Assembly: GCA_043800555.1 (NCBI GenBank)
Contig: JAZDMX010000017.1
Coordinates: 4,068-68,067 of the forward strand
Source of the DNA: Candidatus Omnitrophota bacterium
GTDB taxonomy: Bacteria; Omnitrophota; Gorgyraeia; Gygaellales; Profunditerraquicolaceae
Length of the DNA: 64,000 bases
Reading direction: 5' to 3'
Part shown: piece after piece, positions 2,755 to 52,835 of the stretch
How positions within the stretch are numbered: the first letter of the stretch is position 1
How the letters are laid out: the number at the start of each line of letters is the position of its first letter
Program-made: the position numbers and the translations under genes
The notes under the pieces: model-generated
The model's input: only the letters and a program-made list of their open reading frames with translations
The model's database searches: none
What the model was told of the DNA's origin: nothing

Positions 2755-2900
2755 GTTTCTAAAAAAAGGGGACGCGGGAATTGGGGACGTTTCTACTTTT
2801 CCAGAGTTTAAAGCCGGAAAAGTAGAAACGTCCCCAATTCCCGTAGAAACGTCCCCCTTTTCGCAATTTCTAGAAAAGCGGAAACGTCCCTTTTTTTTCG
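2755..2900. repeat. Composite, nested copy of the palindromic REP-like element. It carries extra GGGGACG-cgggaatt units.
   Basis: Contains GGGGACGTTTCTACTTTTC ... GAAAAGTAGAAACGTCCCC plus mirrored flanks. Lies immediately upstream of the start of the giant repeat protein. Confidence 0.85.
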
Positions 2901-2940
2901 TATAATCCGTTATGTTTCCCATATTCTGCTATCGGCTAAA

Positions 2941-3522
2941 TCATTCCGCCCCAAACATAAACGCGGGTTCGTCGGGGATGGCTTCTTCGGAATTCTTAAA
3001 CGCCCCCCTTAAGGTAATTATTCCTCCGCCTCCTCCTAAAACTACTTCTCCGCCTTTCCTTATGTAAAGCGCCTTATCCGTAACATTATCCGGAGCAATC
3101 AATCCGTAAACGAAATTCTCGGCGGTAACCGTTGAATCCGTCCTCCCGCCGGCTGTAAGCGATTTCGCCTTAAAAACTTCAGACACTTTAGAGATAACTA
3201 CGCCGGCCCCCTGCTTGTCGACAACGGCATCATCCGATGAGCCGGGCACTCCTTTGGGGAACCAATTGCCGGCTTTATCCCAGCTTGCCGCGTCGGCCTT
3301 CCCCGACCACTGCTTCGTATCAGCCCGCGCGCCGCTACAAGAAAAAAATAGCACAAAAATGAATAAACTCAAGGAAAATATGAGAGAAAAGGGGGACGAA
3401 AAAAAGGGGGACGTTTCTACTTTTCTGGCGCTAGATTCGGGAAAAGTAGAAACGTCCCCTTTTTTCCCGTTCTCCTTTTCTCCGCTTCTCTTTTCTCTTG
3501 AGACATCCGCATTTTTCTTCAT
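2941..3522 (-). CDS. Secreted hypothetical protein. Its N-terminal region includes a translated REP-like element, followed by a hydrophobic signal-like segment.
   Basis: The 193-aa ORF has its ATG at 3522, overlapping the stop of the upstream gene in an ATGA arrangement. Hydrophobic stretch SLIFSLSLFIFVLFFSCSGARA. Confidence 0.5.
   Translation of the reverse strand: MKKNADVSREKRSGEKENGKKGDVSTFPESSARKVETSPFFSSPFSLIFSLSLFIFVLFFSCSGARADTKQWSGKADAASWDKAGNWFPKGVPGSSDDAVVDKQGAGVVISKVSEVFKAKSLTAGGRTDSTVTAENFVYGLIAPDNVTDKALYIRKGGEVVLGGGGGIITLRGAFKNSEEAIPDEPAFMFGAE
3387..3467. repeat. REP-like palindromic element, copy 2.
   Basis: GGGGGACG aaaaaaa GGGGGACGTTTCTACTTTTC tggcgctagattcgg GAAAAGTAGAAACGTCCCC with a T-run. 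Confidence 0.9.
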
Positions 3523-4832
3523 GGCCTGACAAATAGCGAAGCTCCGCCAATATCCATTTTCTTTACTTCCAAATAAACCTTGCCATCCAGAATTATTTCA
3601 CCCGAGACGTCATTAAAGCCATAATCATACAGGCCATTATACCCCAAACTCAAAAGGTTAAGGCCTAAATCAGCCGCCAGGCGCGGCCGGGCGGAAAAAA
3701 CTTTATTGCCCTCCGGGTATTCTATGGTATAAGTTTCAATAAGCGGCTGGGCCAAACCGGAAATCTTGGAAAATTGGACCTTAAGCACCCAGGAAGAGCC
3801 CCCGCTTTCGGGCTTTGCCTCCAGGATTAAAGAATCTTTATTATCAATACCGCTTAAATTGTCCAGATAGAGCGCCTTGACCTCCCTGGAATCCGGTATA
3901 GGGAACCTCGCCCCTTCCTTCAGCATAAGATTGCCCGAGCGCATCGGCGCGTTACGCAAAGCGACAAAAGTAATGCTTTGGCGCGTACTGCCGTTTTTGC
4001 TTTGCGCGGTAAAAGCGATTTCTATCGCCGTGATTACGGGTATATCGGAAGTTGCTATGGAGCCTTCCGAACCCAATTCGCTATTTGTATTGTCAAAATA
4101 ACGAAATTTAAAATCCGTGATTTTCACCCCGAAAGGATTTTTATAAACCTCTTTCGAACCGTCTTTATCGTCAATAAATACTGCTTGGGCAAGCGGGTCA
4201 TAGCGAAAAGTTACCAGGCAATCGGCGTCTTTTCCATAATCCGGATAAAAAGTAAAACGCAGGTGGCTGCCGGCAGGCACAGCCATATCCAGCTTGAATT
4301 GAGGGTAGTCTTCGGATTTTCCTTTATCGATGAAGGTGACCGGAACAACCTTGTATTCATTGGATTCGGGCAAAAGCGCCTCGGCAATCGGCAGGCTTGC
4401 GCCGGGTTTAATATGTTTATTTAAGGTATAGGTGTTGACCCCGGTATAGACGTCGTGAGTGTCGTCGGTCCAAGGCATAACCGTAACAACTTTTTCAGAA
4501 GTGCCGTCTACCACTTCCAGCGCGTCGCGAAGCCCGTAAGCGCCGGGAAGCCCTTCCACGAGTTCCTCCATAATCCGCGAAGAAGCCTGCTGCAAAAGAA
4601 GCTGATCCTGGGAAATGTCCCAACTTTCCAAGGCAGTCTTCAGGCTGAAATATAACGCGGCTGTGATTAAAGTGGAAATCGCTACGGCGATAACGAGTTC
4701 AATAAGAGTAAACCCCCTGGAAAAGGGGGACGTTCCCGCGGAAAAGGGGGACGTTTCTACTTTTCTGGCGCTAGATTCGGGAAAAGTAGAAACGTCCCCC
4801 TTTTTCAGCTCGCCTTTTCTTCTCATATCCAT
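3519..4832 (-). CDS. Large prepilin-type N-terminal cleavage/methylation domain protein. Possibly a minor pilin or tip-adhesin-like subunit.
   Basis: The motif SRG|FTLIELVIAVAISTLITAALYF is a class III signal with Glu+5. Total length 437 aa. A 40-aa leader includes the translated REP element. Confidence 0.6.
   Translation of the reverse strand: MDMRRKGELKKGDVSTFPESSARKVETSPFSAGTSPFSRGFTLIELVIAVAISTLITAALYFSLKTALESWDISQDQLLLQQASSRIMEELVEGLPGAYGLRDALEVVDGTSEKVVTVMPWTDDTHDVYTGVNTYTLNKHIKPGASLPIAEALLPESNEYKVVPVTFIDKGKSEDYPQFKLDMAVPAGSHLRFTFYPDYGKDADCLVTFRYDPLAQAVFIDDKDGSKEVYKNPFGVKITDFKFRYFDNTNSELGSEGSIATSDIPVITAIEIAFTAQSKNGSTRQSITFVALRNAPMRSGNLMLKEGARFPIPDSREVKALYLDNLSGIDNKDSLILEAKPESGGSSWVLKVQFSKISGLAQPLIETYTIEYPEGNKVFSARPRLAADLGLNLLSLGYNGLYDYGFNDVSGEIILDGKVYLEVKKMDIGGASLFVRP
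4712..4806. repeat. REP-like palindromic element, copy 3, with an extra partial left arm.
   Basis: GGGGGACGttcccgcggaaaaGGGGGACGTTTCTACTTTTC tggcgctagattcgg GAAAAGTAGAAACGTCCCCC. Confidence 0.9.
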
Positions 4833-5326
4833 ATACTGTCCTCGAACAAAGTAGCCACGGAAGCAACCGGCTTCTTAAGGTTATCGCTGCGGTAAACCTC
4901 CACCCTGACCTCCAAAGGGTCCGTATCGGCAAGAACGCGCCGCAAAACCCTCCACTTGGCCTGGTTCATTTCCAAAGGAGGCTCATCCAGTTTTGGCGTC
5001 CAGAGGTCGCCTATTTTTTTAAGGCCGGGCTTGGTAACATTCAAATTCTGGGTCCTTTCCATTTCCCAGCGCGCCAGGTTTACAGCGGTAATCTCTTCTC
5101 CTGAAACCGTAACGGAATAAAGAGCGCTTGAAAAAAGCTGTATCATCGGTATAAAGAGCACGGCGATAACGACAAGCGCGATGAGGATCTCGATAAAAGT
5201 AAATCCCCGGAAAAAAGGGGACGTTTCTACTTTTCCCGGATCTGGCGCCAGAAAAGTAGAAACGTCCCCTTTTTTCCGGGAAAAGTAGAAACGTCCCCCT
5301 TTTTCTTTTTCGATATCAAAACGCAT
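4823..5326 (-). CDS. Minor pseudopilin, GspI/J- or PilV-like, with a prepilin N-terminus.
   Basis: FRG|FTFIEILIALVVIAVLF. The leader contains a translated REP element. Confidence 0.6.
   Translation of the reverse strand: MRFDIEKEKGGRFYFSRKKGDVSTFLAPDPGKVETSPFFRGFTFIEILIALVVIAVLFIPMIQLFSSALYSVTVSGEEITAVNLARWEMERTQNLNVTKPGLKKIGDLWTPKLDEPPLEMNQAKWRVLRRVLADTDPLEVRVEVYRSDNLKKPVASVATLFEDSIWI
5211..5306. repeat. REP-like palindromic element, copy 4 (1.5 copies: one hairpin plus an extra right arm).
   Basis: GGGGACGTTTCTACTTTTC ccggatctggcgccag AAAAGTAGAAACGTCCCC ttttttccggg AAAAGTAGAAACGTCCCCC. Confidence 0.9.
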
Positions 5327-5720: not shown

Positions 5721-6259
5721 TCAGAAGGCACCTCGCCTTTGTTTTTTCCCCACTTATCGCTCAAAGGCTCGGTTACATTCACTACCACCTTGGCTTTATC
5801 CGTATAATACGCCCAGCCTCCTGCGCCGGACAGATCCTCGTCGCTCTTAAGGTCTACAAAAGAATTGCTGCCTGCTTTGGAAGAAACCATCTCCAGGGGA
5901 AGTTTGGCTAAGTATGGCTGCTTAACGCCCATATCATCGTAGCTCCTGGTCAAGAGATCAGAAAGCGCCACGGGATATTCCCCTTCTTTGGCGCGGAACA
6001 TCGCGATGCGCGTGCGCAGCGTATTTAAATTGGTGAGTGTGGCCGAAACCTTTGCTTCCGTATCAAAACCAATGAAATTAGGAATAATAGTCGCTGCCAA
6101 TATCGCGATGATAGAAATAACAATTAGAAGCTCAAGCAAAGTGAAGCCCTTAGAAAAGGGGGACGTTTCTACTTTTCTGGCACGAGGCTTGCGAAAAGTA
6201 GAAACGTCCCCCTTTTCCGCGCCCCCTTTTTCCTTCCGGAAAGATAATGCTAACCTCAT
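5714..6259 (-). CDS. gspG: GspG/PulG-like major pseudopilin (type II secretion / type IV pilin-like).
   Basis: SKG|FTLLELLIVISIIAILAATIIPNF is a textbook GspG N-terminus. The 38-aa leader includes a translated REP element. Confidence 0.75.
   Translation of the reverse strand: MRLALSFRKEKGGAEKGDVSTFRKPRARKVETSPFSKGFTLLELLIVISIIAILAATIIPNFIGFDTEAKVSATLTNLNTLRTRIAMFRAKEGEYPVALSDLLTRSYDDMGVKQPYLAKLPLEMVSSKAGSNSFVDLKSDEDLSGAGGWAYYTDKAKVVVNVTEPLSDKWGKNKGEVPSEW
6153..6233. repeat. REP-like palindromic element, copy 5.
   Basis: GGGGGACGTTTCTACTTTTC tggcacgaggcttgc GAAAAGTAGAAACGTCCCCC. Confidence 0.9.
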
Positions 6260-6263
6260 TTTC

Positions 6264-7508
6264 CTACCTCCTGATAACGCTGATTAGATTAAAAATAGGC
6301 AATAAAACAGATAGGGCGATAAAAGCCACAATCGAACCCATTACCAAAAGCATTGCCGGCTCAAGCAGGCTGGTAAGGTTACGCACCGTAAATTCGATTT
6401 CCGGCTCATAAAAAGAGGCTATCTGGTCGAACATCTGGTCAAGCCTCCCTGTGCGCTCTCCCGTGTTAATCAACTGTATAACCATAGGCGGGAATAAACC
6501 CGACGCCTGGAAAGGCTCGGTTAAGCTTTGCCCTTGCGAAATAGCTAACCGGGTGTCTTTAATCATCTTTTGCAGGACAACATTAGGAATAGTATTCTCT
6601 ACCACCGAAAGCGCTTCTAACACCGGGACTCCGGATTTGGTAAGGGCGGCTATAGAACGCGATAAGCGGCTGGTTATGACCTTAAGGGTCAGCGGCCCAA
6701 ACAACGGAAGCCGCAGAAGCAAGAAATCAATGCGGTAGCGGCCCGCCGAAGTCCGGTAATAATTCCTTAAAGCGTTTAGGCCAATGATAGCTGCCAGGCC
6801 GATTAACCACCAGAAATTCCTTACGATATAGCTTAAAGAAAGCAGGGTTTTTGTAGGTAAGGGCAACTTGGCCGAAGAGGCTTCAAATATGGCAACGAAT
6901 TTAGGGAGGACCGCGACCAAAACAAAATTCACGATAACAAAAGCTACCAAGCCCAGCACTATAGGATAAACCAATGCCGAACGGATCCGGCTGCGCAGGT
7001 CAATCTCCTGCGTGCTTAATTCCGCCAGCCTGCTCAAGACCTTATCCAGCATGCCTCCGGCTTCCCCCACTTTGATTAAGCTTACATATAAATTCTCGAA
7101 GATACCGGGGTAGCGGGCAAGCGATTCCGAAAAACTCAATCCCTCCTCTAAAGAAGAAATAATATCTTTTATGACCGACTTAAACCTCGAATTTTGCGTC
7201 TGGCCTAAAACATTTTCCAGGCTTGTAATTAACGGGGCGCCGGTAGAAATAAGGGTGCTTAACTGTCGAGTAAATACAAGCAACTCCTGGCGCGAAACTC
7301 TTCTCACCCAGAAAGGGGAGGGCGTTTCCACTTTTCCCGAGCTTGGCGCCGAAAAAGTGGAAACGCCCTCCCCTTTTTCCGCTATGTCAACCGGGCTAAG
7401 GCCGAGTTTCTCTATTGACAAGGCTGCTTTTGTTTCGTCTTCGGCATCAATGACCCCTTGAGCCAAAGCGCCTTGGGCATCTCTTGCTTTATAGCTAAAG
7501 GTTGTCAT
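6264..7508 (-). CDS. pilC: Type II secretion system protein F / type IV pilus platform protein PilC. A 23-codon REP-like element is inserted in-frame.
   Basis: The N-terminus reads MTTFSYKARDAQGALAQGVIDAEDETKAALSIEKLGLSPV, then the insertion GEGVSTFSAPSSGKVETPSPF, then SRQELLVFTRQLSTLISTGAPL and three TM segments. Confidence 0.85.
   Translation of the reverse strand: MTTFSYKARDAQGALAQGVIDAEDETKAALSIEKLGLSPVDIAEKGEGVSTFSAPSSGKVETPSPFWVRRVSRQELLVFTRQLSTLISTGAPLITSLENVLGQTQNSRFKSVIKDIISSLEEGLSFSESLARYPGIFENLYVSLIKVGEAGGMLDKVLSRLAELSTQEIDLRSRIRSALVYPIVLGLVAFVIVNFVLVAVLPKFVAIFEASSAKLPLPTKTLLSLSYIVRNFWWLIGLAAIIGLNALRNYYRTSAGRYRIDFLLLRLPLFGPLTLKVITSRLSRSIAALTKSGVPVLEALSVVENTIPNVVLQKMIKDTRLAISQGQSLTEPFQASGLFPPMVIQLINTGERTGRLDQMFDQIASFYEPEIEFTVRNLTSLLEPAMLLVMGSIVAFIALSVLLPIFNLISVIRR
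7310..7380. repeat. Variant REP-like palindrome (subfamily) lying in-frame inside pilC.
   Basis: GGGGAGGGCGTTTCCACTTTT cccgagcttggcgccg AAAAAGTGGAAACGCCCTCCCC. The arms differ from the main family but remain perfectly complementary to each other. Confidence 0.8.
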
Positions 7509-9027: not shown

Positions 9028-9047
9028 ATTGGCTACTTCATCAACTT

Positions 9048-9521: not shown

Positions 9522-9559
9522 CTCTTTTTATGCCTAAGCTTCTTATATCGTAATGCCAT

Positions 9560-11097: not shown

Positions 11098-12160
11098 TAC
11101 CTCCGTTTATAAATTTTGTTGCCAGCCCTAAAGCCCCGGTAAAGGCTATAGAATTCTGCTGGACAACCGGGTTCAACCCGTTCTCGGAGTGAGAAACAAA
11201 AAAAGCCAAAGGATCAAAGACATTAACCGGGATTTCCAATTTGTCAGCCAGGAATTTATCCAGGTTTTTCAATGCCGCCGCCCCGCCGCACAAAATAAGG
11301 CGCTCGATTTCCGGCGCTTTAGATTTTACAAATTTATGGGAGAAATCTTTAATCGCGTGCTCAATATCAATAAGCATATTTTCCATCTGGCTGGAAAGCG
11401 CCGGGCACTCACCCAGGCCTTCCTCTATCTTTAAGGCTTCTGCCTTTTCCCAATCAAACTGATAGTATCCGGCCAAGATTCCGGTAAAACCGTTACCCGA
11501 GGCACCTAACGGCGTTATAAGATAGGGATGGCCCCCGGATACAATAATTATCGAGGAATTGCTTGCTCCTATTCGCAGCACCAAAACAGTTTCCTTTTCT
11601 GATATATTTTTAGATAAAGACAGGGCTTCAATAACTGCGTAAGGCTGGGGCTCAATAGAAACTAAATCTAAGGATAAGCCCTTAAAGAACTTGGCCATAT
11701 CCAAAACTGTTTTCTTGCTAGTTACAAATACTAAAACATAAATATCCTTATTCCCGGCCTCCTGGGGGCTGGCGCAAACATAATCAAACGATATATCATC
11801 AAATTTTACTCCCGGAGGAAGGTTCTGTTTGATTTTCCAGGTAAGGGCGGGTTCAACTTCGCCTGCGGGCATATCCGGCAAGGTATAGCTATAGGTGTTA
11901 ATCCCGCTCAACGGGATCGAAACCGCTACTTCCCCTTTGACCCGATTCTCTTTTACAAGTTTCTCCAAAGAATCTTCCGGGATAATGGAGACAGGGACGC
12001 CTTTATCGCGCCCAAGGCTGGCATAGTCAGCTTTTAGGATTTTATAACTGGATTTGAATTTGGCTAATTGCAATAGCTTAAGCGAACTTGAACCTATTTC
12101 TATTGCAGTAGGGAAATACTCCGGCTTTAATCGCAACACTCTAACCTCCTTTACGGGCAA
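11072..12160 (-). CDS. pilM: Type IV pilus assembly ATPase-fold protein PilM (actin-like).
   Basis: VLRIGASNSSIIIVSGGHPYLITPLGASG and ERLILCGGAAALKNLDKFLADKLEIPVNVFDPLAFF. Confidence 0.8.
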   Translation of the reverse strand: MPVKEVRVLRLKPEYFPTAIEIGSSSLKLLQLAKFKSSYKILKADYASLGRDKGVPVSIIPEDSLEKLVKENRVKGEVAVSIPLSGINTYSYTLPDMPAGEVEPALTWKIKQNLPPGVKFDDISFDYVCASPQEAGNKDIYVLVFVTSKKTVLDMAKFFKGLSLDLVSIEPQPYAVIEALSLSKNISEKETVLVLRIGASNSSIIIVSGGHPYLITPLGASGNGFTGILAGYYQFDWEKAEALKIEEGLGECPALSSQMENMLIDIEHAIKDFSHKFVKSKAPEIERLILCGGAAALKNLDKFLADKLEIPVNVFDPLAFFVSHSENGLNPVVQQNSIAFTGALGLATKFINGGIDFEIKAG

Positions 12161-12187
12161 TTTTTCAATGGCCCTGTAAAATTCAAA

Positions 12188-12406
12188 TTATAAGTGCTGC
12201 GCAATAAGCTTGAGAGAATAACCCTCCTGGCGAAGTTTTCTTATCTTGGAAAAACTTTTGAGAATACCTGATCTGCTATACAACCTCATATTGCCTTTTC
12301 TTCCCTCGGCCCGGAACAGCCCTATGTTAGTGTAATAATTGACTGTGGCCATAGAGATCCCCAACAGGGAAGCGATCTCCTTTGGTGACAAATACTTTCC
12401 ACTCAT
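12188..12406 (-). CDS. Small MerR/excisionase-like helix-turn-helix DNA-binding protein.
   Basis: LSPKEIASLLGISMATVNYYTNIGLF is an HTH. A strong Shine-Dalgarno sequence AAGGAGG precedes the ATG. Confidence 0.5.
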   Translation of the reverse strand: MSGKYLSPKEIASLLGISMATVNYYTNIGLFRAEGRKGNMRLYSRSGILKSFSKIRKLRQEGYSLKLIAQHL

Positions 12407-12487
12407 AACAGCCTCCTTTTTTATGTTATCTTAATACCTGCTTTTCCTAGTATTTATATTGCTTTAACTAACATATATTAACTTTAA

Positions 12488-12522
12488 CTATATATAATAC
12501 AAATACAGGCATTTGTCAAGAG
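12488..12522 (-). promoter_or_regulatory. Sigma70-like promoter for the merR-like gene and the pilMNOPQ operon (minus strand).
   Basis: On the minus strand: TTGACA, 16-17 nt, then TATATA/TATTAT, about 90 nt upstream of the 12406 start. The region also carries direct repeats TTAACTA(A/T)ATATA. Confidence 0.35.
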
Positions 12523-12530
12523 AAATTGGG

Positions 12531-12620
12531 CCCGGAAAAAGGGGGACGTTTCTACTTTTCCGGCGCCAGATCCGGGAAAAGTAGAAACGTCCCCCTTTTT
12601 CCAGGCCCCTTTTTTAACCC
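12531..12620. repeat. REP-like palindromic element, copy 7, immediately 3' of the RAYT gene.
   Basis: GGGGGACGTTTCTACTTTTC cggcgccagatccgg GAAAAGTAGAAACGTCCCCC. Confidence 0.9.
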
Positions 12621-13282
12621 CTCGGCCTTCCTATTTTTTTGTTAAAGTTATTTATTTGATAGAACTCTGATAACCCGCGGACAAACGCCTCGCTGCCGAT
12701 GAAAAACTGTTTAGAAATAACCTCTGAATTCACTATGCTGCTATCTACTACAAATTCTATATATAGTTTCGCTCTAGCCTGGAGAGAGCCGGAAAGGCTG
12801 CAATACGCCGGGCTATCGGAAATTACGGCATTTGGCAAACCAAGCGCATAATAACAGTAGCTGCTGAAGCGATACCTTTCAGGCGCTTTAACCAGCCCGG
12901 ACCTTACCGGATTAAGCTCAATATACTTCCCGCATTGCAAAAGATACGAATCGGTATCAATAATATTGCTTTTATACCTGCCCTGCCAGATATGCCCGCT
13001 GTAACCATAAGTCCTTTTGTAATAATTAAAATATAAGAGATTGAGTTGTTTCATAAACTTGGGCAAGTTACTTGTAGCATCCAGCCAAACAATCAAATGG
13101 CTATGGTTACTCATGATACAATAGTGGAATATACTGATATTATTCTCTTTTCTAAGGTTTTTTAGCAGTTCCCAATAGGCATGCTTGTCTTCATCGCACC
13201 TAAAGATACACTGCTGGTTATTTCCTCTAGTCATAATATGCAAAGCCCCATTCCGGGGGATAAGCCTTCTTGTCCTGGGCAT
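12614..13282 (-). CDS. REP-associated tyrosine transposase (RAYT; IS200/IS605 TnpA-like Y1 HuH transposase).
   Basis: HuH motif CIMSNHSHLIV and catalytic-Tyr motif YIELNPVRSGLV, the RAYT signature Y..NPV.AGLV. AGGAGG Shine-Dalgarno sequence upstream. REP copies flank it on both sides. Confidence 0.8.
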   Translation of the reverse strand: MPRTRRLIPRNGALHIMTRGNNQQCIFRCDEDKHAYWELLKNLRKENNISIFHYCIMSNHSHLIVWLDATSNLPKFMKQLNLLYFNYYKRTYGYSGHIWQGRYKSNIIDTDSYLLQCGKYIELNPVRSGLVKAPERYRFSSYCYYALGLPNAVISDSPAYCSLSGSLQARAKLYIEFVVDSSIVNSEVISKQFFIGSEAFVRGLSEFYQINNFNKKIGRPRG

Positions 13283-13357
13283 AATAATACCTCCTTTCGC
13301 GCTCTTATACTAATTGACGCAAAAGAAGGCAGAATCTAACTAAAAAAGAGGAAAAAA

Positions 13358-13465
13358 TTGGGGACGCGAAATTGGGGACGCGAAATTGGGGACGTTTCTA
13401 CTTTTCTGGCTTTAGGTTCTAGAAAAGTAGAAACGTCCCCAATTTCGCCCAATTCCGCGTCCTAG
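13358..13465. repeat. REP-like element, copy 8. Extended form with two GGGGACG-cgaaatt units, 5' of the RAYT gene.
   Basis: GGGGACGcgaaattGGGGACGcgaaattGGGGACGTTTCTACTTTTC tggctttaggttctag AAAAGTAGAAACGTCCCC aatttcgcccaattccgCGTCC. Confidence 0.9.
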
Positions 13466-13653
13466 TGGGTAACAACGTGAAGATAGGCAGCCGGCTTATC
13501 ATCGGGCTTGGAAGTTATACAATCATCAAGCCTGAAAGTCTCGGCCTCAACCATCTTTGGCTGCAGGTTAATAAAGGTATTTATAACTAACATAATTGCG
13601 ATCAAAAATAATAGAATGTCCCTGATTTCTAATTCTCTCTTAATCATCATCAA
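13462..13653 (-). CDS. Hypothetical small membrane protein with one TM segment. Speculative.
   Basis: The 63-aa ORF contains ILLFLIAIMLVINTFINL and lies between two REP copies. There is no homology evidence. Confidence 0.2.
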   Translation of the reverse strand: MMMIKRELEIRDILLFLIAIMLVINTFINLQPKMVEAETFRLDDCITSKPDDKPAAYLHVVTH

Positions 13654-13682
13654 CCTCCTATTAAAAGAAAAGCGAAGGAGGC

Positions 13683-13752
13683 AAAAAAAGGGGACGTTTC
13701 TACTTCTCTAACAATCAAGCCCGGGAAAAGTAGGAACGTCCCCTTTTTTTGC
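13683..13752. repeat. REP-like palindromic element, copy 9 (slightly degenerate), 3' of pilB.
   Basis: GGGGACGTTTCTACTTcTC taacaatcaagcccgg GAAAAGTAGgAACGTCCCC. Confidence 0.85.
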
Positions 13753-13764
13753 CTCCCCCTTTGC

Positions 13765-15435
13765 TTATCCTTCATGGGTAACCCGCAGGACCTCGGAAAC
13801 ACTGGTAATCCCTTTAAGCAGCTTATCGATACCGTCTTCATACATTGTCTTCATTCCTTTGCGGATGGCAGCATCCCTAATTTCTCCGGCGGAAGACTTT
13901 TTCTCAATCAATCTCTTAATGTCGTCATCCGGCACGAGCATTTCAAAAATCCCTATCCTCCCCGAGTATCCGGAATTCCGGCACTCCTGGCAACCCTTTT
14001 CCCGGTAGAACCTGATAGGGCCGGGCCCTGCCTTGACACTCAACTCATCCAACAACTCCTTGGCGGGAGAATAGGCTTCTTTGCAGCGCGGGCATAATAC
14101 CCTCAACAGGCGCTGCGCGACCACGCAGATTAACGCCGAAGAAACCAAAAACGGCTCGGTCTCCATATCGATTAACCTGGTGGCTGCCGAAGGCGCATCA
14201 TTAGTATGAAGAGTGGAAAAAACCAAATGCCCGGTTAAAGCCGCATGGATGGCAATCTCGGCAGTTTCGTGGTCACGCACCTCGCCAATCATAATTACGT
14301 CGGGGTCCTGCCGGACAAGAGAACGCAGGCCCACGGCAAAAGTAAGGCCGGCCTTGACATTTACCTGCGACTGGCGCACCCGGTCGATCTCATATTCAAT
14401 CGGATCTTCCATGGTAACTATGTTTTGCTCGGTGCTATTAATATCAAGCATAACGGCATAAAGAGTGGTGCTTTTGCCGGAGCCGGTCGGCCCGGTAACC
14501 AAAATAATCCCGTGCGGCTTACGGATTATCTCCTTGAATGCCTCCAATGCCCCATCCGGCATCCCTAAATCTTTCAGCCGGATAAGCGAGCGAGTCTTAT
14601 CCAAAATCCTGATAACCAGGTTTTCGCCATACATCGTAGGAAAGGTTGAAACGCGCAAATCAACGCTCCTTCCCGCCGCAACTGTCTGAATGCGCCCATC
14701 CTGCGGAAGCCGTTTCTCTGAAATATCCATATTAGACATTATCTTGATCCGGGAAATTATTGCCGCTTCGTATCTTTTGGCAAGTTTTGGCATGTCATGA
14801 AGGACCCCGTCCATCCTGAAACGGCAATAAAAATCTTCTTTTTCGGGCTCAAGGTGTATGTCGCTTGCCCCCAATTCAACCGCCTTGGCGATTAAATTAT
14901 CCACAATGCTTACCACCGGAGCAAGGCTGGCAATCTGCACGGAATCCATACCCGTCAAATTGACAACTTCCGCCTCTTTATCCTGCCCCGCCTTAAGCGC
15001 GGAAAAACTTTCTTTACGGTATTCCCTGTTAATATTATCGAAAACTTGCGACGGCCGGGCAAAAACCAGGCGCACCGGCTCCTTAATCGCTTTGCGGATT
15101 TCATCTGTAGATTTTTCATCCAAAGGGCTGGCCAAAGCCACTGTAACAGCGGTAGCGCTCTTAAAAATCGGCAATGCCGAATATTTCCTGATTATCTCTT
15201 CGGGCAACAGCCTAATGACCGCCGGCTCTAACTTGTATCTTGACAGGTCCACGCAGGCAAAACCCAGCTGTTCGCTTAACGCCAGAGTTACCTGCTCCTC
15301 GTTAGCGTAGCCTTTTTTGATCAGGATCTCGCTTAAGCTCCTGCCGGAACTCTCTTGCTCTGCCAAAGCTTCATCAAGCTGGCTGCTTGTGGTGATATTT
15401 TTGGTAACTAATAATTCGCCCATCCTTTTCGTCAT
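13765..15435 (-). CDS. pilB: Type IV pilus / type II secretion assembly ATPase of the GspE/PilB family.
   Basis: N-terminal GspE_N-like domain. Walker A motif GPTGSGKSTT, and a C-terminal tetracysteine CPRC...CQEC. Confidence 0.9.
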   Translation of the reverse strand: MTKRMGELLVTKNITTSSQLDEALAEQESSGRSLSEILIKKGYANEEQVTLALSEQLGFACVDLSRYKLEPAVIRLLPEEIIRKYSALPIFKSATAVTVALASPLDEKSTDEIRKAIKEPVRLVFARPSQVFDNINREYRKESFSALKAGQDKEAEVVNLTGMDSVQIASLAPVVSIVDNLIAKAVELGASDIHLEPEKEDFYCRFRMDGVLHDMPKLAKRYEAAIISRIKIMSNMDISEKRLPQDGRIQTVAAGRSVDLRVSTFPTMYGENLVIRILDKTRSLIRLKDLGMPDGALEAFKEIIRKPHGIILVTGPTGSGKSTTLYAVMLDINSTEQNIVTMEDPIEYEIDRVRQSQVNVKAGLTFAVGLRSLVRQDPDVIMIGEVRDHETAEIAIHAALTGHLVFSTLHTNDAPSAATRLIDMETEPFLVSSALICVVAQRLLRVLCPRCKEAYSPAKELLDELSVKAGPGPIRFYREKGCQECRNSGYSGRIGIFEMLVPDDDIKRLIEKKSSAGEIRDAAIRKGMKTMYEDGIDKLLKGITSVSEVLRVTHEG

Positions 15436-15454
15436 TATATTTTTACCCCCCAGA

Positions 15455-15530
15455 AAAACGGGGAAATCGGGGACGTTTCTACTTTTCGGGGCCCGAAAGC
15501 CGGAAAAAGTAGAAACGTCCCCGATTTCTC
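15455..15530. repeat. REP-like palindromic element, copy 10.
   Basis: GGGGACGTTTCTACTTTT cggggcccgaaagccgg AAAAAGTAGAAACGTCCCC. Confidence 0.9.
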
Positions 15531-15533
15531 TCT

Positions 15534-17879
15534 CTATTTATTCTTCAATTCTCTCCACATAAGCTGATTAATGCCTGTCTTACCTGCCCTGCCAAAAGTG
15601 ATTGCCCCTTTTCTGGTTTTTATCTTATACGATGACGACACCAGGATAGTAACCGTTTCCGCCTCTGAATCGGTTACGGAAAGCGTGATCTTTCCATTGG
15701 TGAATCTGGCGGAAGTAGCTGCCAGCGAAGCGCTGCCGTTATCCGAATCCTCAACCGCCTCTACATTTACCGTCAGGCCGCTCTCCGAAGTAATGACGTT
15801 GCCTTCATCATCCACTATCTGGATAGTGACCTCGCCGGTCCCGACAGGCGAGGTAGTGTCAATTACTTCGATAGTGGCGTTTTTCACCGTAATTTTGGAC
15901 GACTCAACGCTCAAAGAGCCTTTTTGAGACTGGGCAACCACGGTATAACTGCCTGCCTGAGCTGGAACAGCTGAAAATGTATGCGCGCCCGCATCTGCGC
16001 CGGTAAAAGTGTACGGCCCCGGCAGGGCCAATCCAATACCCGAGGACAATTCAACAGCTCCGGGGTAATTCGGTATGGGTCCCCCCAGCGCGTCTAAAAC
16101 TTTCACCACCATCTCAATCGGCTCGCCGATATAGAAGAAATCTCGCTCACTGTTGGCGGGAATTACGCTGATTGACATACTCTTGGGTAAAAATACGATG
16201 TCGGGGCTAATCCCGGATTTTGCCGGATCAACCGAATCTTCGGCCTTAAGTTTTATCGTGCCGTAAAGATTATAAGATACATCTGCTTTGGCAATTCCGC
16301 TAAGGAAACTGCTTGCCGCTATCACGGAAGGAGAAAACGATGCCTTAGGAATACTAAGAGGCGTAACCGCTAACGGCAATAAATTAACAGCGCTATTATA
16401 ATTCGGGGTTATTAAGCCCGCGGCATTTAAAGCGGTAACGCTAACCTTAAATGGATTTGAAACAATTTGCGGGCTCTCGGCCGAAACAATAAAGCTTGCC
16501 GGCAGGAATAAAATCTGGCTGCTTGCGCCTGTTTGATCCGAATCTTCGCTATCGGTTGCCGTAATCGTAACCAGGCCGCAATCAGGATATTTCGCCGTGG
16601 TAACCTTAAGGACGCCCTTGACGAAACCCGACACGTTATCAGGCAATATGGGAAAACTACCCTTAGCCGGAGAAATATAATCTAGCGACAGGTTCACGGC
16701 GCCGCCGTAAGATTCATCGGTATTGGCCTTCTCATCCTTGGCGGTAATTATTATATCAAAACTTTGGCCGGCGACCTGCGGCGTAGCGGCTTCAACGGCA
16801 AAACGCGCAAACTTATTCACTATCTCAAATTCCTGCAGGGCGTCGAGATAACCCCGGTCCGGATACTCCCTTACGTTAATTACGGGCCTGCCGGAAGCGG
16901 TATCTTTATAATAAAAGGTTACCTGTTGGGCTGATTTCGGAATAATAATCTGCTCTTGGCTTACCCAGGGGTCCTTATTCAGAGAAAAACTTCCGCTAGT
17001 GGAAGTAGATTTTAGCTCTAAAGTTATATCTGTCGCCGCTGTCTGGGGCGCGGAATCGGAATCCTGCAGTTGAAGGACAATCGGCCCCGAAACCTGGCCC
17101 TGCATTAACTTCTGGGGCGCGCTAATTATCTGCAAACGGTAAATGTAGCTGACTTCTATATCGTCGACATAAGCATTACTCTGCCCGGAAGCCGAATAAG
17201 TGCCGTAAAACTTAAGGTCGCTTAAAGAATTTATGGTATTATCGATAAATCCCAGGTTGGTTTCCAGCGGGCTAAACCCTATATCCGAATTGGGATCGAC
17301 AAAATAAAGATCGTAGGTATGGTTAATGAAATCGAGTTTCATGGACACATCGTACCACTGCCCGGTTACATAGGTAGCTCCGGTATCCACCCAGGAGGAG
17401 CCGTCAGCAACCAGGACATTGCCGGTGAAATCAAAACAAACAGCCCCGACTCCGGATGAGGGCACGCTGGGGGTTTGATTGGAAATCGAAGGACGGATTT
17501 TAAAACGAATCCAGGTAGGCGTATGCCCGCCATATGCAAAAGGCCGGTCCACCACGGGAACGTTGAGCGCCCCAATGAGCTCCACTGAATTGCCTGTTCC
17601 GCCGGGAGTTACTTTAGACTGCGCGATCGCGTTATTTTCCGAACCGCTAAAAACATTCCAGTAATCTGTGCCGTCAATGGTTGCCCCGTCGATAAAATTG
17701 CTGAAATCCTGGAAATATGTGTCAAGGGTAGCTGACTGCGGCAAGCCGCAAAAAGCCTCCGGCGCCCCGCATATTAAGAAAAATATAATAAGTATTGCGC
17801 GGGATAAAAAAAAGGGGGACGTTTCTACTTTTCTGGAAGCTAAAGCCGGAAAAGTAGAAACGTCCCCCTTTTTTCTCAT
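15534..17879 (-). CDS. Large secreted surface protein with a lectin/LamG-like N-terminal region and Ig-like repeats. Its N-terminus is encoded by a REP element, followed by a signal peptide.
   Basis: The 781-aa protein starts MRKKGDVSTF...KVETSPFF, the REP translation, followed by LSRAILIIFFLICGAPEAFC. The sequence is rich in T/S/V/G beta-strand repeats. Confidence 0.55.
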   Translation of the reverse strand: MRKKGDVSTFPALASRKVETSPFFLSRAILIIFFLICGAPEAFCGLPQSATLDTYFQDFSNFIDGATIDGTDYWNVFSGSENNAIAQSKVTPGGTGNSVELIGALNVPVVDRPFAYGGHTPTWIRFKIRPSISNQTPSVPSSGVGAVCFDFTGNVLVADGSSWVDTGATYVTGQWYDVSMKLDFINHTYDLYFVDPNSDIGFSPLETNLGFIDNTINSLSDLKFYGTYSASGQSNAYVDDIEVSYIYRLQIISAPQKLMQGQVSGPIVLQLQDSDSAPQTAATDITLELKSTSTSGSFSLNKDPWVSQEQIIIPKSAQQVTFYYKDTASGRPVINVREYPDRGYLDALQEFEIVNKFARFAVEAATPQVAGQSFDIIITAKDEKANTDESYGGAVNLSLDYISPAKGSFPILPDNVSGFVKGVLKVTTAKYPDCGLVTITATDSEDSDQTGASSQILFLPASFIVSAESPQIVSNPFKVSVTALNAAGLITPNYNSAVNLLPLAVTPLSIPKASFSPSVIAASSFLSGIAKADVSYNLYGTIKLKAEDSVDPAKSGISPDIVFLPKSMSISVIPANSERDFFYIGEPIEMVVKVLDALGGPIPNYPGAVELSSGIGLALPGPYTFTGADAGAHTFSAVPAQAGSYTVVAQSQKGSLSVESSKITVKNATIEVIDTTSPVGTGEVTIQIVDDEGNVITSESGLTVNVEAVEDSDNGSASLAATSARFTNGKITLSVTDSEAETVTILVSSSYKIKTRKGAITFGRAGKTGINQLMWRELKNK
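17806..17876. repeat. REP-like palindromic element, copy 11. It overlaps the start of the 15534..17879 gene.
   Basis: GGGGGACGTTTCTACTTTTC tggaagctaaagccg GAAAAGTAGAAACGTCCCCC. Confidence 0.9.
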
Positions 17880-20924: not shown

Positions 20925-22613
20925 CTATTGTTTTTTCTTGAATTCTCCTTCAAAATAATCGGCCTGCGCGAAATCCCCCTGGCTGTAATAAAAAGCAGCC
21001 AGGTTACGATAGGCGTCGGCATAATCCGGGTTTATTGCGATAGTCTCCTTCCACAGCTTTTCCGCTTCTTCCGGCTTGCCCTGGTTATAATATAGTATCC
21101 CCAGGTTAAAACGGACGTCATCGTAATCCGGATTAACCGCCAATTCCATCTTGTATTCTTCTTCCGCGGCTTCAAGCTCGCCCCGGGAGGCGTAAATCAA
21201 CCCTAAATTATTATGCGCCATCGGCTCAAGCGCGTTAAGCTCCAAGGCCTTTTTGTATTCCGGCTCCGCTTTATCCAGTGAGCCTTCAAGATAATACATC
21301 GCCCCCAAGTTACGGTGGGCAAGCGGCGAATGCGGAGAATTCTTTACGGCGTTTAGCCAGAAACTCAACTTGTCTCTGAAATTCCCGGTGTGAAAAAAGG
21401 TTATGGCCGCGAATAAAATTATAACCGCGGATGCAGCCGTAAAATTCCTCTTTAAGCCAAAATCAAGCTTCTTCATTATATCGGTTTCAAGGAGCAAAAT
21501 AAAAAACCCGGCCAGCGGCATATAAACCCTATGCTCTATGAAATCCGCCGCTATCTTCGGATTCGGCCGGATAAACGAGGGCAATAAGAAAAGCAAAAAC
21601 CAGGCTGCGCCGAAAATGACAAATCCGCGGCGGGCATGTTTTGAGAAAAACAAGGCCGGCGTAATTAACGCCAACGCCAAAATACCGTAAACAAATGTCG
21701 TATCTTGTATCAAGGGGAGCACGGACAGATTAAAAGGGAAAATGATCTTGCCGATAAACTGAATTAAAGCCGGCAGATTCAGCAGCATCGACTTAACCAT
21801 ATTCGCTACGGTCATCGGCATGGGATTATCGCTAAGCGCCACCGAACGCATAAAAAACCAAAGGCCGGATACAGCCAGCCATCCCGCCAGCACAAAAAAA
21901 GGGGACGTTTCTACTTTTCTGGCGCCAAGTTCGGGAAAAGTAGAAACGTCCCCTTTTTTCGAAACGCCCCGCTTTTTCCATATAAGCCAATAATATAGGA
22001 TACACACGGGCATAAGCATTAAAGCCGATTCTTTCGTAAAGAGGGCCAGGCAAAAAAAGAAGATATGCGCCAAACAATACCTGATCTTTTTTGTCTCCAG
22101 GAAATCCAAAAAGAAAATAAATGACGCTAAGCCAAAAAGGGCTAGCAGGGAATCGTTTCTTCCCGGTATCCAGCTTACCGCTTGCGCCAATACGGGATGG
22201 ACGCTAAAAAGCAGGGAGAAAAATAACGCCGGCCTAAAGGGATAGCCCAATTTGGAAAAAAACTTAAAGACCAGGCAGGAAGCCGCCAAATGTATGATGA
22301 TATTAGTCAGGTGGTATATGAACGGGTTTGTGCCGCCGAGCTGCGCGTCAAATAATAACGACACAGTCAGCAGCGGCCGATAATAAGCGGCCGAGCTATG
22401 CAGTATGTGAAAAACCTCGTGCCTGAATGCCTCAAGCACATTGGATAAACGGCTCAAGAAATTGTGGTTATTGATGACTAACGCATTATCGTCAAGGTAG
22501 GTAAACCCAAAAAATAGCGACTTAAAATATACCAGGAGCCCGGCGCCGGATATGAAAACGCAGGCCAACGCCCCCCTTAAAGAAACGGATCCGGGACCGC
22601 TTTTCTTCTTCAT
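20925..22613 (-). CDS. Polytopic membrane protein of the PMT/ArnT-like glycosyltransferase superfamily (GT-C fold) with C-terminal TPR repeats. A REP element is inserted in-frame in a loop.
   Basis: N-terminal GFTYLDDNAL (DD motif) followed by multiple TM segments. The C-terminus carries 4-5 TPRs (AEPEYKKALELNALEPMAHNNLGLIY...). The in-frame insertion reads SKKGDVSTFPELGARKVETSPFF. Confidence 0.55.
   Translation of the reverse strand: MKKKSGPGSVSLRGALACVFISGAGLLVYFKSLFFGFTYLDDNALVINNHNFLSRLSNVLEAFRHEVFHILHSSAAYYRPLLTVSLLFDAQLGGTNPFIYHLTNIIIHLAASCLVFKFFSKLGYPFRPALFFSLLFSVHPVLAQAVSWIPGRNDSLLALFGLASFIFFLDFLETKKIRYCLAHIFFFCLALFTKESALMLMPVCILYYWLIWKKRGVSKKGDVSTFPELGARKVETSPFFVLAGWLAVSGLWFFMRSVALSDNPMPMTVANMVKSMLLNLPALIQFIGKIIFPFNLSVLPLIQDTTFVYGILALALITPALFFSKHARRGFVIFGAAWFLLFLLPSFIRPNPKIAADFIEHRVYMPLAGFFILLLETDIMKKLDFGLKRNFTAASAVIILFAAITFFHTGNFRDKLSFWLNAVKNSPHSPLAHRNLGAMYYLEGSLDKAEPEYKKALELNALEPMAHNNLGLIYASRGELEAAEEEYKMELAVNPDYDDVRFNLGILYYNQGKPEEAEKLWKETIAINPDYADAYRNLAAFYYSQGDFAQADYFEGEFKKKQ
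21894..21959. repeat. REP-like palindromic element, copy 12, lying in-frame (66 nt) inside the 20925..22613 CDS.
   Basis: GGGGACGTTTCTACTTTTC tggcgccaagttcgg GAAAAGTAGAAACGTCCCC. Confidence 0.9.
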
Positions 22614-27736: not shown

Positions 27737-27802
27737 AAAAGGGGGACGTTTCTACTTTTCTGGCAATCCGGCTCAAGAAAAGTAGAAACGTCCCCCTTTT
27801 CC
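27737..27802. repeat. REP-like palindromic element, copy 13, in the divergent eno/ftsH intergenic region.
   Basis: GGGGGACGTTTCTACTTTTC tggcaatccggctcaa GAAAAGTAGAAACGTCCCCC. Confidence 0.9.
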
Positions 27803-33010: not shown

Positions 33011-33083
33011 GAAAAAAAGGGGGACGTTTCTACTTTTCTCGGCTTTAGGCTCAAGAAAAGTAGAAACGTCCCCCTTTTTTTTG
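33011..33083. repeat. REP-like palindromic element, copy 14.
   Basis: GGGGGACGTTTCTACTTTTC tcggctttaggctcaa GAAAAGTAGAAACGTCCCCC. Confidence 0.9.
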
Positions 33084-43996: not shown

Positions 43997-44068
43997 AAAA
44001 AAAGGGGGACGTTTCTACTTTTCTAGAACTAAACCCGGAAAAGTAGAAACGTCCCCCTTTTTTTTTAC
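43997..44068. repeat. REP-like palindromic element, copy 15, overlapping the stop of the bla-like gene.
   Basis: GGGGGACGTTTCTACTTTTC tagaactaaacccg GAAAAGTAGAAACGTCCCCC. Confidence 0.9.
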
Positions 44069-52747: not shown

Positions 52748-52835
52748 CTGAAAAAGGGGGACGTTTCTACTTTTCCTGAACTTGATGCTAGAAAAGCAGA
52801 AACGCCCCCTTTTTTTCAGGAACGTCCTTCTTTTT
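52748..52835. repeat. REP-like palindromic element, copy 16 (slightly divergent, with extended TCCTGAAAAA / TTTTTCAGGA flanks).
   Basis: GGGGGACGTTTCTACTTTTC ctgaacttgatgcta GAAAAGcAGAAACGcCCCC. Confidence 0.85.

What the first reader, a model, noticed from the sequence alone, without database searches (positions are those of the whole stretch)
21894..21959. A second in-frame REP insertion, in a GT-C/TPR membrane glycosyltransferase-like protein
A 66-nt palindrome (22 codons, SKKGDVSTFPELGARKVETSPFF) sits between TM helices of the 562-aa protein without breaking the frame. PilC, the three prepilins and the N-termini of two secreted proteins carry the element in the same translated frame (KGDVSTF...KVETSPF). 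That frame is one of only two without stop codons, which implies selection: only frame-preserving insertions survived.
Basis: seen in the sequence. Interest (0 to 1): 0.65.

Follow-up and report, generated by a model that had tools for sequence, protein, structure and literature searches.

The report
In-frame REP hairpin inside a glycosyltransferase gene
A 66-base palindromic repeat, belonging to a family that sits next to its own transposase-like gene, lies in frame inside a membrane glycosyltransferase gene and adds a floppy 22-residue loop; this kind of event is already known from Rickettsia and other bacteria, but this Omnitrophota family appears to be undescribed.

Summary
Window 21894-21959 is a perfect 25+25-nt palindrome with a 15-nt loop. 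It spans exactly 22 codons of an intact 562-aa PMT_2/TPR (GT-C-like) gene and forms a low-confidence coil between two helices.

It is one of 16 copies in the window (0.02 expected by chance). Eight copies lie in coding sequence, and all eight are read in the same phase (KGDVSTF..KVETSPF). The prepilin leaders have no alternative start codon after the element, so it must be translated there.

The family is REP/REPIN-like. A Y1 HUH transposase at 12614-13282 has REP-associated tyrosine transposase as its only NCBIfam match and is flanked by copies. The same arrangement occurs in three other genomes.

Relatives give empty sites, relics and filled sites. At least 18 species-level MAGs, mostly Omnitrophota, carry the family. 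There it also sits in frame in PriA, another TPR membrane protein, prepilin leaders and signal peptides.

The translated phase follows loop length. One stop-free phase (GRFYF) is never found in validated translated copies, so stop avoidance alone does not explain the bias.

In-frame REP/RPE insertions were described in 2000 and 2013. This is a new member of a known kind, of moderate interest.

The parts
21894..21959 (.). The 66-nt REP hairpin of the finding: A-run, 19-nt arm, 15-nt loop, 19-nt arm, T-run. It is read as 22 codons (aa 219-240) of the minus-strand gene.
21960..21977 (-). Partial older left arm (gene strand AAAAAGCGGGGCGTTTCG, read as KKRGVS) directly upstream of the full copy. 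A partial arm occupies the same position in L001 and L005.
20925..22613 (-). Host gene: 562-aa PMT_2 (GT-C-like) membrane domain plus TPR repeats. It is intact on both sides of the element.
12614..13282 (-). RAYT-like Y1 (HUH) transposase, 222 aa, with an HSH motif and a WQGRY tyrosine motif. It is flanked by REP copies.
12542..12594 (.). REP copy about 20 nt downstream of the RAYT stop codon (intergenic).
13388..13440 (.). REP copy about 106 nt upstream of the RAYT start, followed by tandem CGTCCCCAATTT arm ends (intergenic).
13690..13743 (.). REP copy, 16-nt loop, intergenic.
15469..15522 (.). REP copy, 16-nt loop, intergenic, between PilB and the DUF6701 protein gene.
17815..17867 (.). REP copy read in phase A as residues 5-22 of the 781-aa secreted DUF6701 protein. 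It forms the n-region of the signal peptide; the next possible start codon lies beyond the hydrophobic core.
7312..7376 (.). Diverged REP copy in PilC (aa 45-66, EKGEGVSTFSAPSSGKVETPSPF). Both arms changed in concert: CCAC/GTGG, and a 3-nt insertion in each arm.
6159..6211 (.). REP copy in phase A inside the leader of the GspG-like prepilin (ORF 5714-6259). An AGGAGG ribosome-binding site precedes the ATG at 6259.
5217..5298 (.). One and a half REP copies in the leader of the FTFIE prepilin (ORF 4823-5326). The full copy is in phase A. The extra arm (5280-5298) is read in phase C.
4747..4799 (.). REP copy in phase A inside the leader of the 437-aa prepilin (ORF 3519-4832), next to an older right-arm relic that L008 also carries.
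3407..3459 (.). REP copy in phase A in the n-region of the signal peptide of the 193-aa secreted protein (ORF 2941-3522).
2783..2835 (.). REP copy in phase A in the N-terminus of a large secreted protein whose ORF runs off the window start. Partial arms lie on both sides (for example 2873-2891). Translation is likely but not certain.
27742..27795 (.). REP copy, intergenic, between divergent genes.
33020..33073 (.). REP copy, intergenic.
44005..44056 (.). REP copy, 14-nt loop, intergenic.
52757..52809 (.). REP copy with a slightly diverged right arm, intergenic.

Best explanation
The 66-nt palindrome is one copy of a REP/REPIN-type hairpin repeat. The family is associated with a single RAYT-like Y1 (HUH) transposase encoded 9 kb away at 12614-13282.

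Inferred: the transposase, or homology-driven copying between copies, spreads and refreshes the hairpin through single-stranded DNA. No target-site duplication is left.

Shown or inferred in part: copies land both between and inside genes, and selection then filters the genic ones. A genic copy persists only if three conditions hold. It must add a multiple of three bases. It must be read in a stop-free phase that encodes a tolerated peptide. It must sit in a dispensable segment. Such segments here are cleaved prepilin leaders, signal-peptide n-regions, and linkers between helices or domains.

In the GT-C/TPR gene the copy lies in a Lys-rich, length-variable loop between two helices. There it is translated as a disordered 22-residue loop.

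The insertion is old. It is shared as a shortened relic with two sister lineages. In this lineage the arms have stayed identical to the family consensus, which implies constraint or concerted evolution acting on the arms.
For: Shown:
- 16 copies in 64 kb against 0.02 expected.
- Y1_Tnp E = 1e-13; the only NCBIfam match is REP_Tyr_transpos.
- The transposase gene is flanked by copies in the window, L007, L144 and L133.
- No target-site duplication.
- The element is in frame and the host gene is intact.
- The element-encoded loop has pLDDT below 50 between two helices.
- The site is empty in L006 and in distant homologues. L001 and L005 carry a shortened relic of about 42 nt at the same site.
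- Prepilin leaders have no start codon between the element and the G|FTLIE motif. L008 and L007 have empty sites or relics at the same positions.
- In-frame copies in other genomes lie in PriA, a TPR membrane protein, a prepilin leader and signal peptides.
- Genic copies all have the 15-nt loop, against 3 of 8 intergenic copies (p = 0.019).
- Phase C is found in 0 of about 19 validated translated copies, although it is open in 36% of open phase/strand combinations.
- Orthologous copies in the window and L007 keep 36/36 arm bases while 4-fold degenerate sites are 59-63% identical.
- 11 of 16 copies lie within 15 kb around the RAYT gene (p = 1.6e-4).

Known precedent: intragenic REPs and RPEs (PMC3733652; PMC10969869, citing Ogata 2000).
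Against: - Mobilisation by this transposase is inferred from adjacency only.
- The NCBIfam score (66 bits) is below the equivalog cut-off of 80.
- The GTAG lies inside the stem, not as an unpaired 5' tag as in classical REPs.
- Each arm is not itself a palindrome.
- The arms stay perfect at orthologous sites, and the PilC copy shows compensatory changes. Both fit selection on each hairpin, or gene conversion, better than simple selfish copy-and-decay.
- The bias against phase C could come from an unknown target preference rather than from peptide-level selection.
- The validated translated copies are not all independent. Several come from paralogous signal peptides in one MAG.
Confidence: 0.8

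Rival explanations
1. The hairpin is mainly a host cis-acting element. Candidates are an RNA hairpin plus U-run acting as attenuator, terminator or mRNA stabiliser, or a protein-binding site. On this view selection keeps it at each site, and the coding copies are regulatory elements embedded in 5' coding regions of surface-protein genes.
For: - Arms are 36/36 identical at orthologous sites while neutral sites are about 60% identical and the loops are unrelated.
- The PilC copy keeps 90% complementarity through paired substitutions and paired 3-nt insertions.
- The same 18-nt arms occur in at least 18 species-level MAGs.
- The window lineage differs from the public family by one compensated pair, CTAC/GTAG against CTAT/ATAG.
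- The RNA hairpin is very stable, with A- and U-runs on both sides.
- 24 of 32 ORF-embedded copies lie within 60 codons of the start.
Against: - Presence and absence vary between sister genomes at the same gene junctions.
- In L007 an unrelated repeat family occupies the same leader positions.
- L008, L001 and L005 show relics and half copies.
- No Rfam family matches the element.
- Association with a RAYT-like gene and local clustering around it point to a mobile origin.
- This rival is not exclusive of the best explanation.
Confidence: 0.2
2. The single translated phase comes from the insertion mechanism. For example, the element might target A-rich Lys codons (AAA AAG G) in one register, so that peptide-level selection plays no part.
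For: - All copies carry an A-run on the left and a T-run on the right.
- Genic copies sit in Lys-rich segments: MRKK at 17815, WKKRGVSKK in GT-C, and KG|F in prepilin leaders.
- The empty FTFIE site in L008 reads GAAAAAGG|TTTT.
Against: - The A-run and G-run lengths differ between copies that share a phase: AAAAAA+GGGG at 21901 against AAAAA+GGGGG at 4747. The register relative to the A/G boundary is therefore not fixed.
- A-run/G motifs in long window ORFs show no strong phase bias, though counts are small.
- Partial arms next to full copies are read in phase C (5280-5298, 2873-2891 and L008:3721), so that phase can arise.
Confidence: 0.15
3. The 562-aa ORF is an artefact. Either two genes or a pseudogene are joined because the element happens to be open in this phase, or the N-terminal copies are really intergenic and the ORFs are over-extended.
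For: - The ORF list is purely mechanical.
- Di Nocera et al. warn that many N-terminal REPs are misannotated (PMC3733652).
- Translation of copy 2783 is not certain.
Against: - Homologues are single proteins of 540-570 aa that align across the site, with invariant residues on both sides.
- The AlphaFold2 model is confident on both sides of the element.
- In three prepilins no ATG, GTG or TTG lies between the element and the cleavage motif. In the secreted proteins the hydrophobic core starts before the next possible start codon.
Confidence: 0.03
4. The repeat is a DNA-uptake-sequence-like motif, enriched by biased uptake and recombination. The neighbouring type IV pilus genes suggest this idea.
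For: - High density of a conserved motif of about 19 nt.
- The motif is conserved across species.
- It lies within a T4P-like cluster.
Against: - The arms occur almost only as inverted pairs with a fixed spacing of 14-16 nt. Only two or three single arms were seen.
- The repeats flank a Y1 transposase gene in four genomes.
- The arms are much longer than known uptake sequences.
Confidence: 0.02

Closest known systems
REP/REPIN-RAYT systems (Nunvar 2010, PMC2817692; Bertels and Rainey 2011, PMC3116915; Di Nocera 2013, PMC3733652)
   Same: - A short, high-copy palindromic repeat formed by two inverted arms around a spacer.
- Single arms occur as remnants.
- A Y1 HUH transposase gene is flanked by copies and sits at a conserved chromosomal position (between PilB and MerR-PilM in both the window and L007).
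- There is no target-site duplication.
- The family is mostly extragenic (81% of copies).
- A GTAG is present.
- Di Nocera et al. already list REPs wholly inside ORFs that encode 20-30 residues, with an excess at N-termini and in DNA replication and repair genes. PriA carries a copy here.
   Different: - The arms are not individually palindromic.
- The GTAG is base-paired inside a 25-bp stem rather than being an unpaired tag.
- Most public copies have ATAG instead of GTAG.
- The transposase scores below the NCBIfam RAYT cut-off.
- Half of the window's copies are coding, concentrated in prepilin leaders and signal peptides.
- The same 18-nt arms are shared by at least 18 species-level MAGs.
Rickettsia palindromic elements (RPE; Ogata et al. 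2000 and 2002, as cited in PMC10969869 and PMC3733652)
   Same: - Palindromic selfish repeats inserted in frame into functional protein-coding genes.
- They add a peptide segment compatible with the protein's fold.
- They are also found at N-termini.
   Different: - RPEs are about 100-150 bp, belong to other sequence families and occur in Rickettsia.
- No dedicated transposase is known for them.
- The element here is 66 nt and is linked to a RAYT-like gene.
Bacterial MITEs with in-frame ORF fusions (ERIC, Correia/NEMIS; review PMC10969869)
   Same: Small non-autonomous repeats that can form hairpins and sometimes fuse in frame with host ORFs.
   Different: MITEs have terminal inverted repeats around an internal segment and leave target-site duplications. 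No duplication was found here, and the whole element is a single hairpin.

Membership tests
REP/REPIN-RAYT system | Short palindromic repeat present in many dispersed copies | tested here: met
   16 copies in 64 kb against 0.02 expected. More than 200 copies in public contigs.
REP/REPIN-RAYT system | Associated Y1 HUH transposase of the IS200-like/RAYT type | tested here: inconclusive
   Pfam Y1_Tnp scores 51.9 bits (cut-off 23). The only NCBIfam match is REP_Tyr_transpos, at 66.3 bits, below the equivalog cut-off of 80. HSH and WQGRY motifs are visible in the sequence. No PDB sequence match.
REP/REPIN-RAYT system | Transposase gene flanked by copies of the repeat | tested here: met
   Window: copies 20 nt downstream and 106 nt upstream. 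L007, L144 and L133: copies within 15-160 nt.
REP/REPIN-RAYT system | Conserved GT[A/G]G tetranucleotide as an unpaired 5' tag of each REP | tested here: not met
   GTAG is present but base-paired with CTAC inside the stem. 215 of 218 public copies have ATAG instead.
REP/REPIN-RAYT system | Two inverted REP units around a spacer forming one long hairpin (REPIN), with single units as remnants | tested here: met
   19-25-nt arms with a 14-16-nt spacer. Single arms at 2873-2891 and 5280-5298, and as relics in L008.
REP/REPIN-RAYT system | Predominantly extragenic location | tested here: inconclusive
   Family-wide, 133 of 165 copies in low-GC loci lie outside ORFs of at least 100 aa. In the window 8 of 16 copies are coding.
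REP/REPIN-RAYT system | Single-copy, vertically inherited transposase | not testable with these tools
   There is one copy in the window, at the same syntenic position in L007. The rest of the source genome is not available.
REP/REPIN-RAYT system | Binding and cleavage of the hairpin by the transposase; mobility | not testable with these tools
   Needs biochemistry or population sequencing.
Rickettsia palindromic elements (RPE) | In-frame insertion into functional ORFs | tested here: met
   GT-C, PilC and prepilins in the window. PriA and a TPR membrane protein in other genomes.
Rickettsia palindromic elements (RPE) | Membership of an RPE sequence family (about 100-150 bp, Rickettsia) | tested here: not met
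   The element is 66 nt and occurs in Omnitrophota MAGs. Sequence comparison with RPE consensus sequences was not run.
MITE | Target-site duplication flanking terminal inverted repeats | tested here: not met
   No direct flanking repeats above the permutation null for k = 3-6.
DNA uptake sequences | Short motif occurring mostly singly, in either orientation | tested here: not met
   30 of 33 arm matches form inverted pairs at a fixed spacing.
Rfam RNA families | Match to a curated covariance model | tested here: not met
   No family reaches its gathering score at any copy.

The most novel reading that the evidence does not exclude
The hairpin arms are actively kept identical at orthologous coding and non-coding sites. 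Either RAYT-dependent or homology-driven concerted evolution does this, or each copy has a host function. On this reading, the copies in the 5' coding regions of pilin and surface-protein genes and in the GT-C loop are dual-constraint elements: nucleic-acid hairpin and peptide at once. They could tune expression of the T4P-like operon rather than being tolerated junk.
Probability: 0.15. Interest if true: 0.65.

Novelty: new member of a known kind. Interest (0 to 1): 0.4.

Why it matters
It extends protein-coding palindromes (RPE, intragenic REP) to Omnitrophota, and here a candidate transposase sits beside the repeats. It shows which protein segments absorb 22 foreign residues: cleaved prepilin leaders, signal-peptide n-regions, and loops between helices or domains. 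It also gives a natural comparison set of empty, relic and filled orthologous sites, with two different repeat families occupying the same leader positions in sister genomes. That set could be used to separate insertion bias, peptide-level selection and hairpin-level constraint. For annotation, it warns that long prepilin leaders and odd N-termini in these MAGs are built from repeats.

Tried and rejected
- Exact scans of genome contigs and metagenome contigs with the window's own arms gave 0 hits. This was later explained: 215 of 218 public copies are the CTAT/ATAG variant.
- A profile of the eight phase-A peptides against 1.84 billion representatives gave only 2 weak hits. One is an unrelated repeat protein and one is a 77-aa ORF over a diverged copy. 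The query is too short, and clustering at 50% identity hides lineage-specific insertions.
- Calling loop orientation to look for a strand bias failed because the loops are too variable and are partly palindromic themselves.
- The terminator scan cannot see the element because it caps loops at 8 nt.
- The A-run/G motif phase in window ORFs was tested as a target-phase idea, but counts were too small to decide.
- The raw ORF-context classes in GC-rich contigs contain spurious ORFs. Only Pfam-validated or start-codon-validated cases were used.
- Extended palindromic flanks seen in several window copies are not a family property. Complementarity is at chance beyond 7 nt.
- The RAYT-like protein has no PDB sequence match.
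Full report
**1. What is in the sequence**

Window 21895-21919 and 21935-21959 are perfectly complementary 25-nt arms: AAAAAAGGGGACGTTTCTACTTTTC and GAAAAGTAGAAACGTCCCCTTTTTT. A 15-nt loop separates them. With one extra A at 21894 the element is 66 nt long.

It lies inside the minus-strand ORF 20925-22613 (562 aa). A codon starts at 21959, so the element is exactly 22 codons: KKGDVSTFPELGARKVETSPFF, residues 219-240. As RNA it folds at -44.6 kcal/mol (z = -6.7). As DNA it folds at -28 kcal/mol (z = -7.5).

**2. The host gene is real and intact**

- Pfam finds PMT_2 at residues 91-215 and TPR repeats at about 435-555.
- An identical protein is annotated in a Candidatus Omnitrophota MAG, on a contig of 115,498 bp.
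- Homologues of 540-570 aa align over the whole length, with invariant residues on both sides of the element.
- An AlphaFold2 model (mean pLDDT 80.6) shows residues 217-236 as a coil with pLDDT below 50. The coil lies between helices 195-217 and 239-260.

**3. It is a repeat family, and half of the window's copies are coding**

The 19-nt arm matches 33 times in the window against 0.02 expected. This corresponds to 16 hairpin copies plus a few single arms.

Eight copies lie in ORFs on the minus strand, and all eight are read in the same phase (GDVSTF ... KVETSP):
- the GT-C gene;
- PilC/GspF (a diverged copy);
- three prepilins;
- two secreted proteins;
- a third large secreted protein whose ORF runs off the window start.

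These are not over-extended ORFs. In the three prepilins no ATG, GTG or TTG lies between the element and the G|FT(L/F)(I/L)E cleavage motif. In the secreted proteins the hydrophobic core of the signal peptide begins before the next possible start codon. Translation of copy 2783 is likely but less certain.

**4. The frame arithmetic**

The left arm is open in all three phases. The right arm contains TAG in one phase.

With the 15-nt loop, two phases are stop-free:
- phase A: GDVSTF..KVETSP;
- phase C: GRFYF..KSRNVP.

For copies 3407 and 4747 a CTAG in the loop also closes phase C on the gene strand. For the other five canonical genic copies both phases are open, yet all five use phase A.

All seven canonical genic copies have the 15-nt loop. 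Only 3 of 8 intergenic copies do; the others have 14 or 16 nt (Fisher one-sided p = 0.019).

**5. What the family is**

ORF 12614-13282 (minus strand, 222 aa) is a Y1 (IS200-like) HUH transposase:
- Pfam Y1_Tnp gives E = 1e-13.
- Its only NCBIfam match is REP-associated tyrosine transposase, at 66 bits. This is below the equivalog cut-off of 80.
- HSH and WQGRY motifs are visible in the sequence.

REP copies flank it, 20 nt after its stop codon and 106 nt before its start. Homologues at 76%, 63% and 57% identity in three other genomes (L007, L133, L144) are flanked by copies in the same way. No target-site duplication is detectable. Eleven of the 16 window copies lie within 15 kb around this gene (binomial p = 1.6e-4).

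This is the anatomy of a REP/REPIN-RAYT system. Three departures should be noted:
- The GTAG is paired inside the stem instead of being an unpaired tag.
- Each arm is not itself a palindrome.
- The transposase is only RAYT-like by score.

No Rfam family matches the element.

**6. Comparison with relatives shows insertion, age and turnover**

*GT-C site.* P0004 (L006, 69-71% identity) and more distant homologues have a short, Lys-rich loop of 12-15 residues at this position. The window has 31 residues. The two closest homologues are P0002 (L005) and P0003 (L001), at about 75% identity. They carry a shortened, decayed hairpin of about 42 nt at the same place, for example ...ATAGAAACATCCCTCTTTTT. 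A partial left arm precedes it, and the window has that partial arm too (21960-21977). The insertion therefore predates the split of these three lineages. It has decayed in two of them and is identical to the consensus in the window.

*PilC site.* Most orthologues are 404-405 aa. L008 is an empty site. L007 carries a clean copy (KKGDVSIF..KIETSPFF). The window carries a diverged copy. The element replaced about 13 linker codons rather than simply being added. The window's PilC copy changed in both arms together: CCAC/GTGG, and a 3-nt insertion in each arm. It remains 90% complementary.

*Prepilin leaders.* L008 has one empty site (MPSKLEKAEKG|FTFIE) and two right-arm relics in phase A (MKTSPFFKG|FTLLE and MDIETSPFFKG|FTLIE). 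L007 has none of this element at these positions. Instead it carries an unrelated repeat built from GGTTAGC-type heptamers, in frame in the same leaders.

*Constraint on the arms.* Orthologous copies in the window and L007 lie 5' of the large secreted protein and beside the RAYT gene. They keep 36/36 arm bases, while their loops are unrelated. Four-fold degenerate sites of PilC and PilB are only 59-63% identical. The arms are therefore under constraint or are homogenised. They are not merely young.

**7. Family-wide view**

The genome contigs come from at least 18 species-level MAGs. Most are Omnitrophota; a few are labelled Planctomycetales or Aminicenantes.

Of the public copies, 215 of 218 are the CTAT/ATAG variant. 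The window's CTAC/GTAG is a compensated pair change. This explains the zero hits of my first exact scans. The palindrome extends about 7 nt beyond the GGGG, as an A-run on one side and a T-run on the other.

In low-GC loci the 165 copies divide as follows:

| Location | Copies |
|---|---|
| Outside ORFs of at least 100 aa | 133 |
| Within 60 codons of an ORF start | 24 |
| Internal to an ORF | 6 |
| Near an ORF 3' end | 2 |

Pfam validates these internal in-frame copies:
- PriA in two genomes, between the 3'-DNA-binding domain and the helicase domain;
- another TPR membrane protein, between hydrophobic segments;
- a prepilin leader.

The N-terminal copies that abut signal-peptide cores are shown.

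The translated phase tracks loop length. Loops equivalent to the window's give phase A. The commonest public loop length gives phase B (GTFLFF..KNRNVP). Phase C (GRFYF) appears in 0 of about 19 validated translated copies, although it accounts for 36% of the open phase/strand combinations. The nominal probability is about 2e-4. It is about 5e-3 if paralogous signal peptides from one MAG are collapsed. So there is a bias beyond stop avoidance. Whether its cause is peptide tolerance or target choice is not resolved.

**8. Relation to what is known**

- In-frame palindromic insertions in functional genes were described for Rickettsia RPEs (Ogata 2000, cited in PMC10969869 and PMC3733652).
- Di Nocera et al. 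2013 (PMC3733652) catalogued REPs lying wholly within ORFs in many species. Most were in Opitutus terrae and R. conorii. These REPs encode 20-30 residues, show an excess at N-termini, and are found in DNA replication and repair genes.
- REPIN-RAYT systems are known to be single-copy and vertically inherited (PMC5581495; bioRxiv 10.1101/2021.07.10.451892).
- I found no paper in the held library that links Omnitrophota with RAYTs or palindromic repeats.

The finding is therefore a new member of a known kind. Its specific points of interest are colonisation of prepilin leaders and signal peptides, the phase bias, conservation of the arms across many species, and recurrent occupation of the same sites.

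**9. Verdict**

- Shown: the hairpin, the family, adjacency to a RAYT-like gene, in-frame translation in dispensable segments, empty and relic orthologous sites, and the length and phase bias.
- Inferred: mobilisation by the RAYT-like protein, and selection as the filter.
- Not tested: the frequency of genes broken by out-of-frame copies in the full genome.

Noticed in passing
L007:461-525, 2250-2291, 11251-11287, 13992-14053; leaders of genes at L007:11748, 12193, 12699, 13988, 14383: The sister genome carries a second, unrelated palindromic repeat built from GGTTAGC/GGTTTAC heptamers. It is read in frame (for example VSGYRLAVSANRSPLTAHR) inside the leaders of the same prepilin and secreted-protein genes that hold the REP in the window.
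   Followed up: partly
window 45768-45849 (-): Match to the c-di-GMP-I-GGC riboswitch aptamer: 62.3 bits against a gathering score of 59. It lies upstream of ORF 45224-45724.
   Followed up: no
L001:16253-16311 and L005:3395-3453: Another perfect palindrome, TTTACGTATCGCGAAT-N27-ATTCGCGATACGTAAA, is shared by two related Omnitrophota contigs. It may be a different repeat family.
   Followed up: no
window 12542-13743 and L007:2540-3500: Next to the RAYT-like gene, the REP copies are followed by tandem repeats of the arm end (CGTCCCCAATTTCG x3 in the window; a similar run in L007). In L007 the loop of one copy contains arm fragments.
   Followed up: partly
window 2783-17867: Eleven of the 16 copies cluster in the 15 kb around the RAYT-like gene, inside the T4P-like operon (binomial p = 1.6e-4). 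This suggests local, cis-biased spread.
   Followed up: partly
L129-L209 (genome-contig hits): Identical 18-nt arms occur in MAGs labelled Planctomycetales (CAZRVK01, CAYJXI01, CAYPRG01) and Aminicenantes (CAWJKR01, CAWECI01) as well as Omnitrophota. This could reflect mis-binning or mislabelling, or horizontal spread.
   Followed up: no
L007:13988-14422: A gene with 23S_rRNA_IVP / bAvd-like Pfam hits sits inside the sister genome's pilin operon. The window has no counterpart at that position.
   Followed up: no
window 2836-2922 and 2700-2782: The first 66 or so residues of the large secreted protein are assembled from about 2.5-3 REP pieces read in different phases (KKKGRFRFSR, EKGDVSTG, the full copy, IPASPFF, RNIPLF). 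The N-terminus appears to be built almost entirely from repeat DNA.
   Followed up: partly
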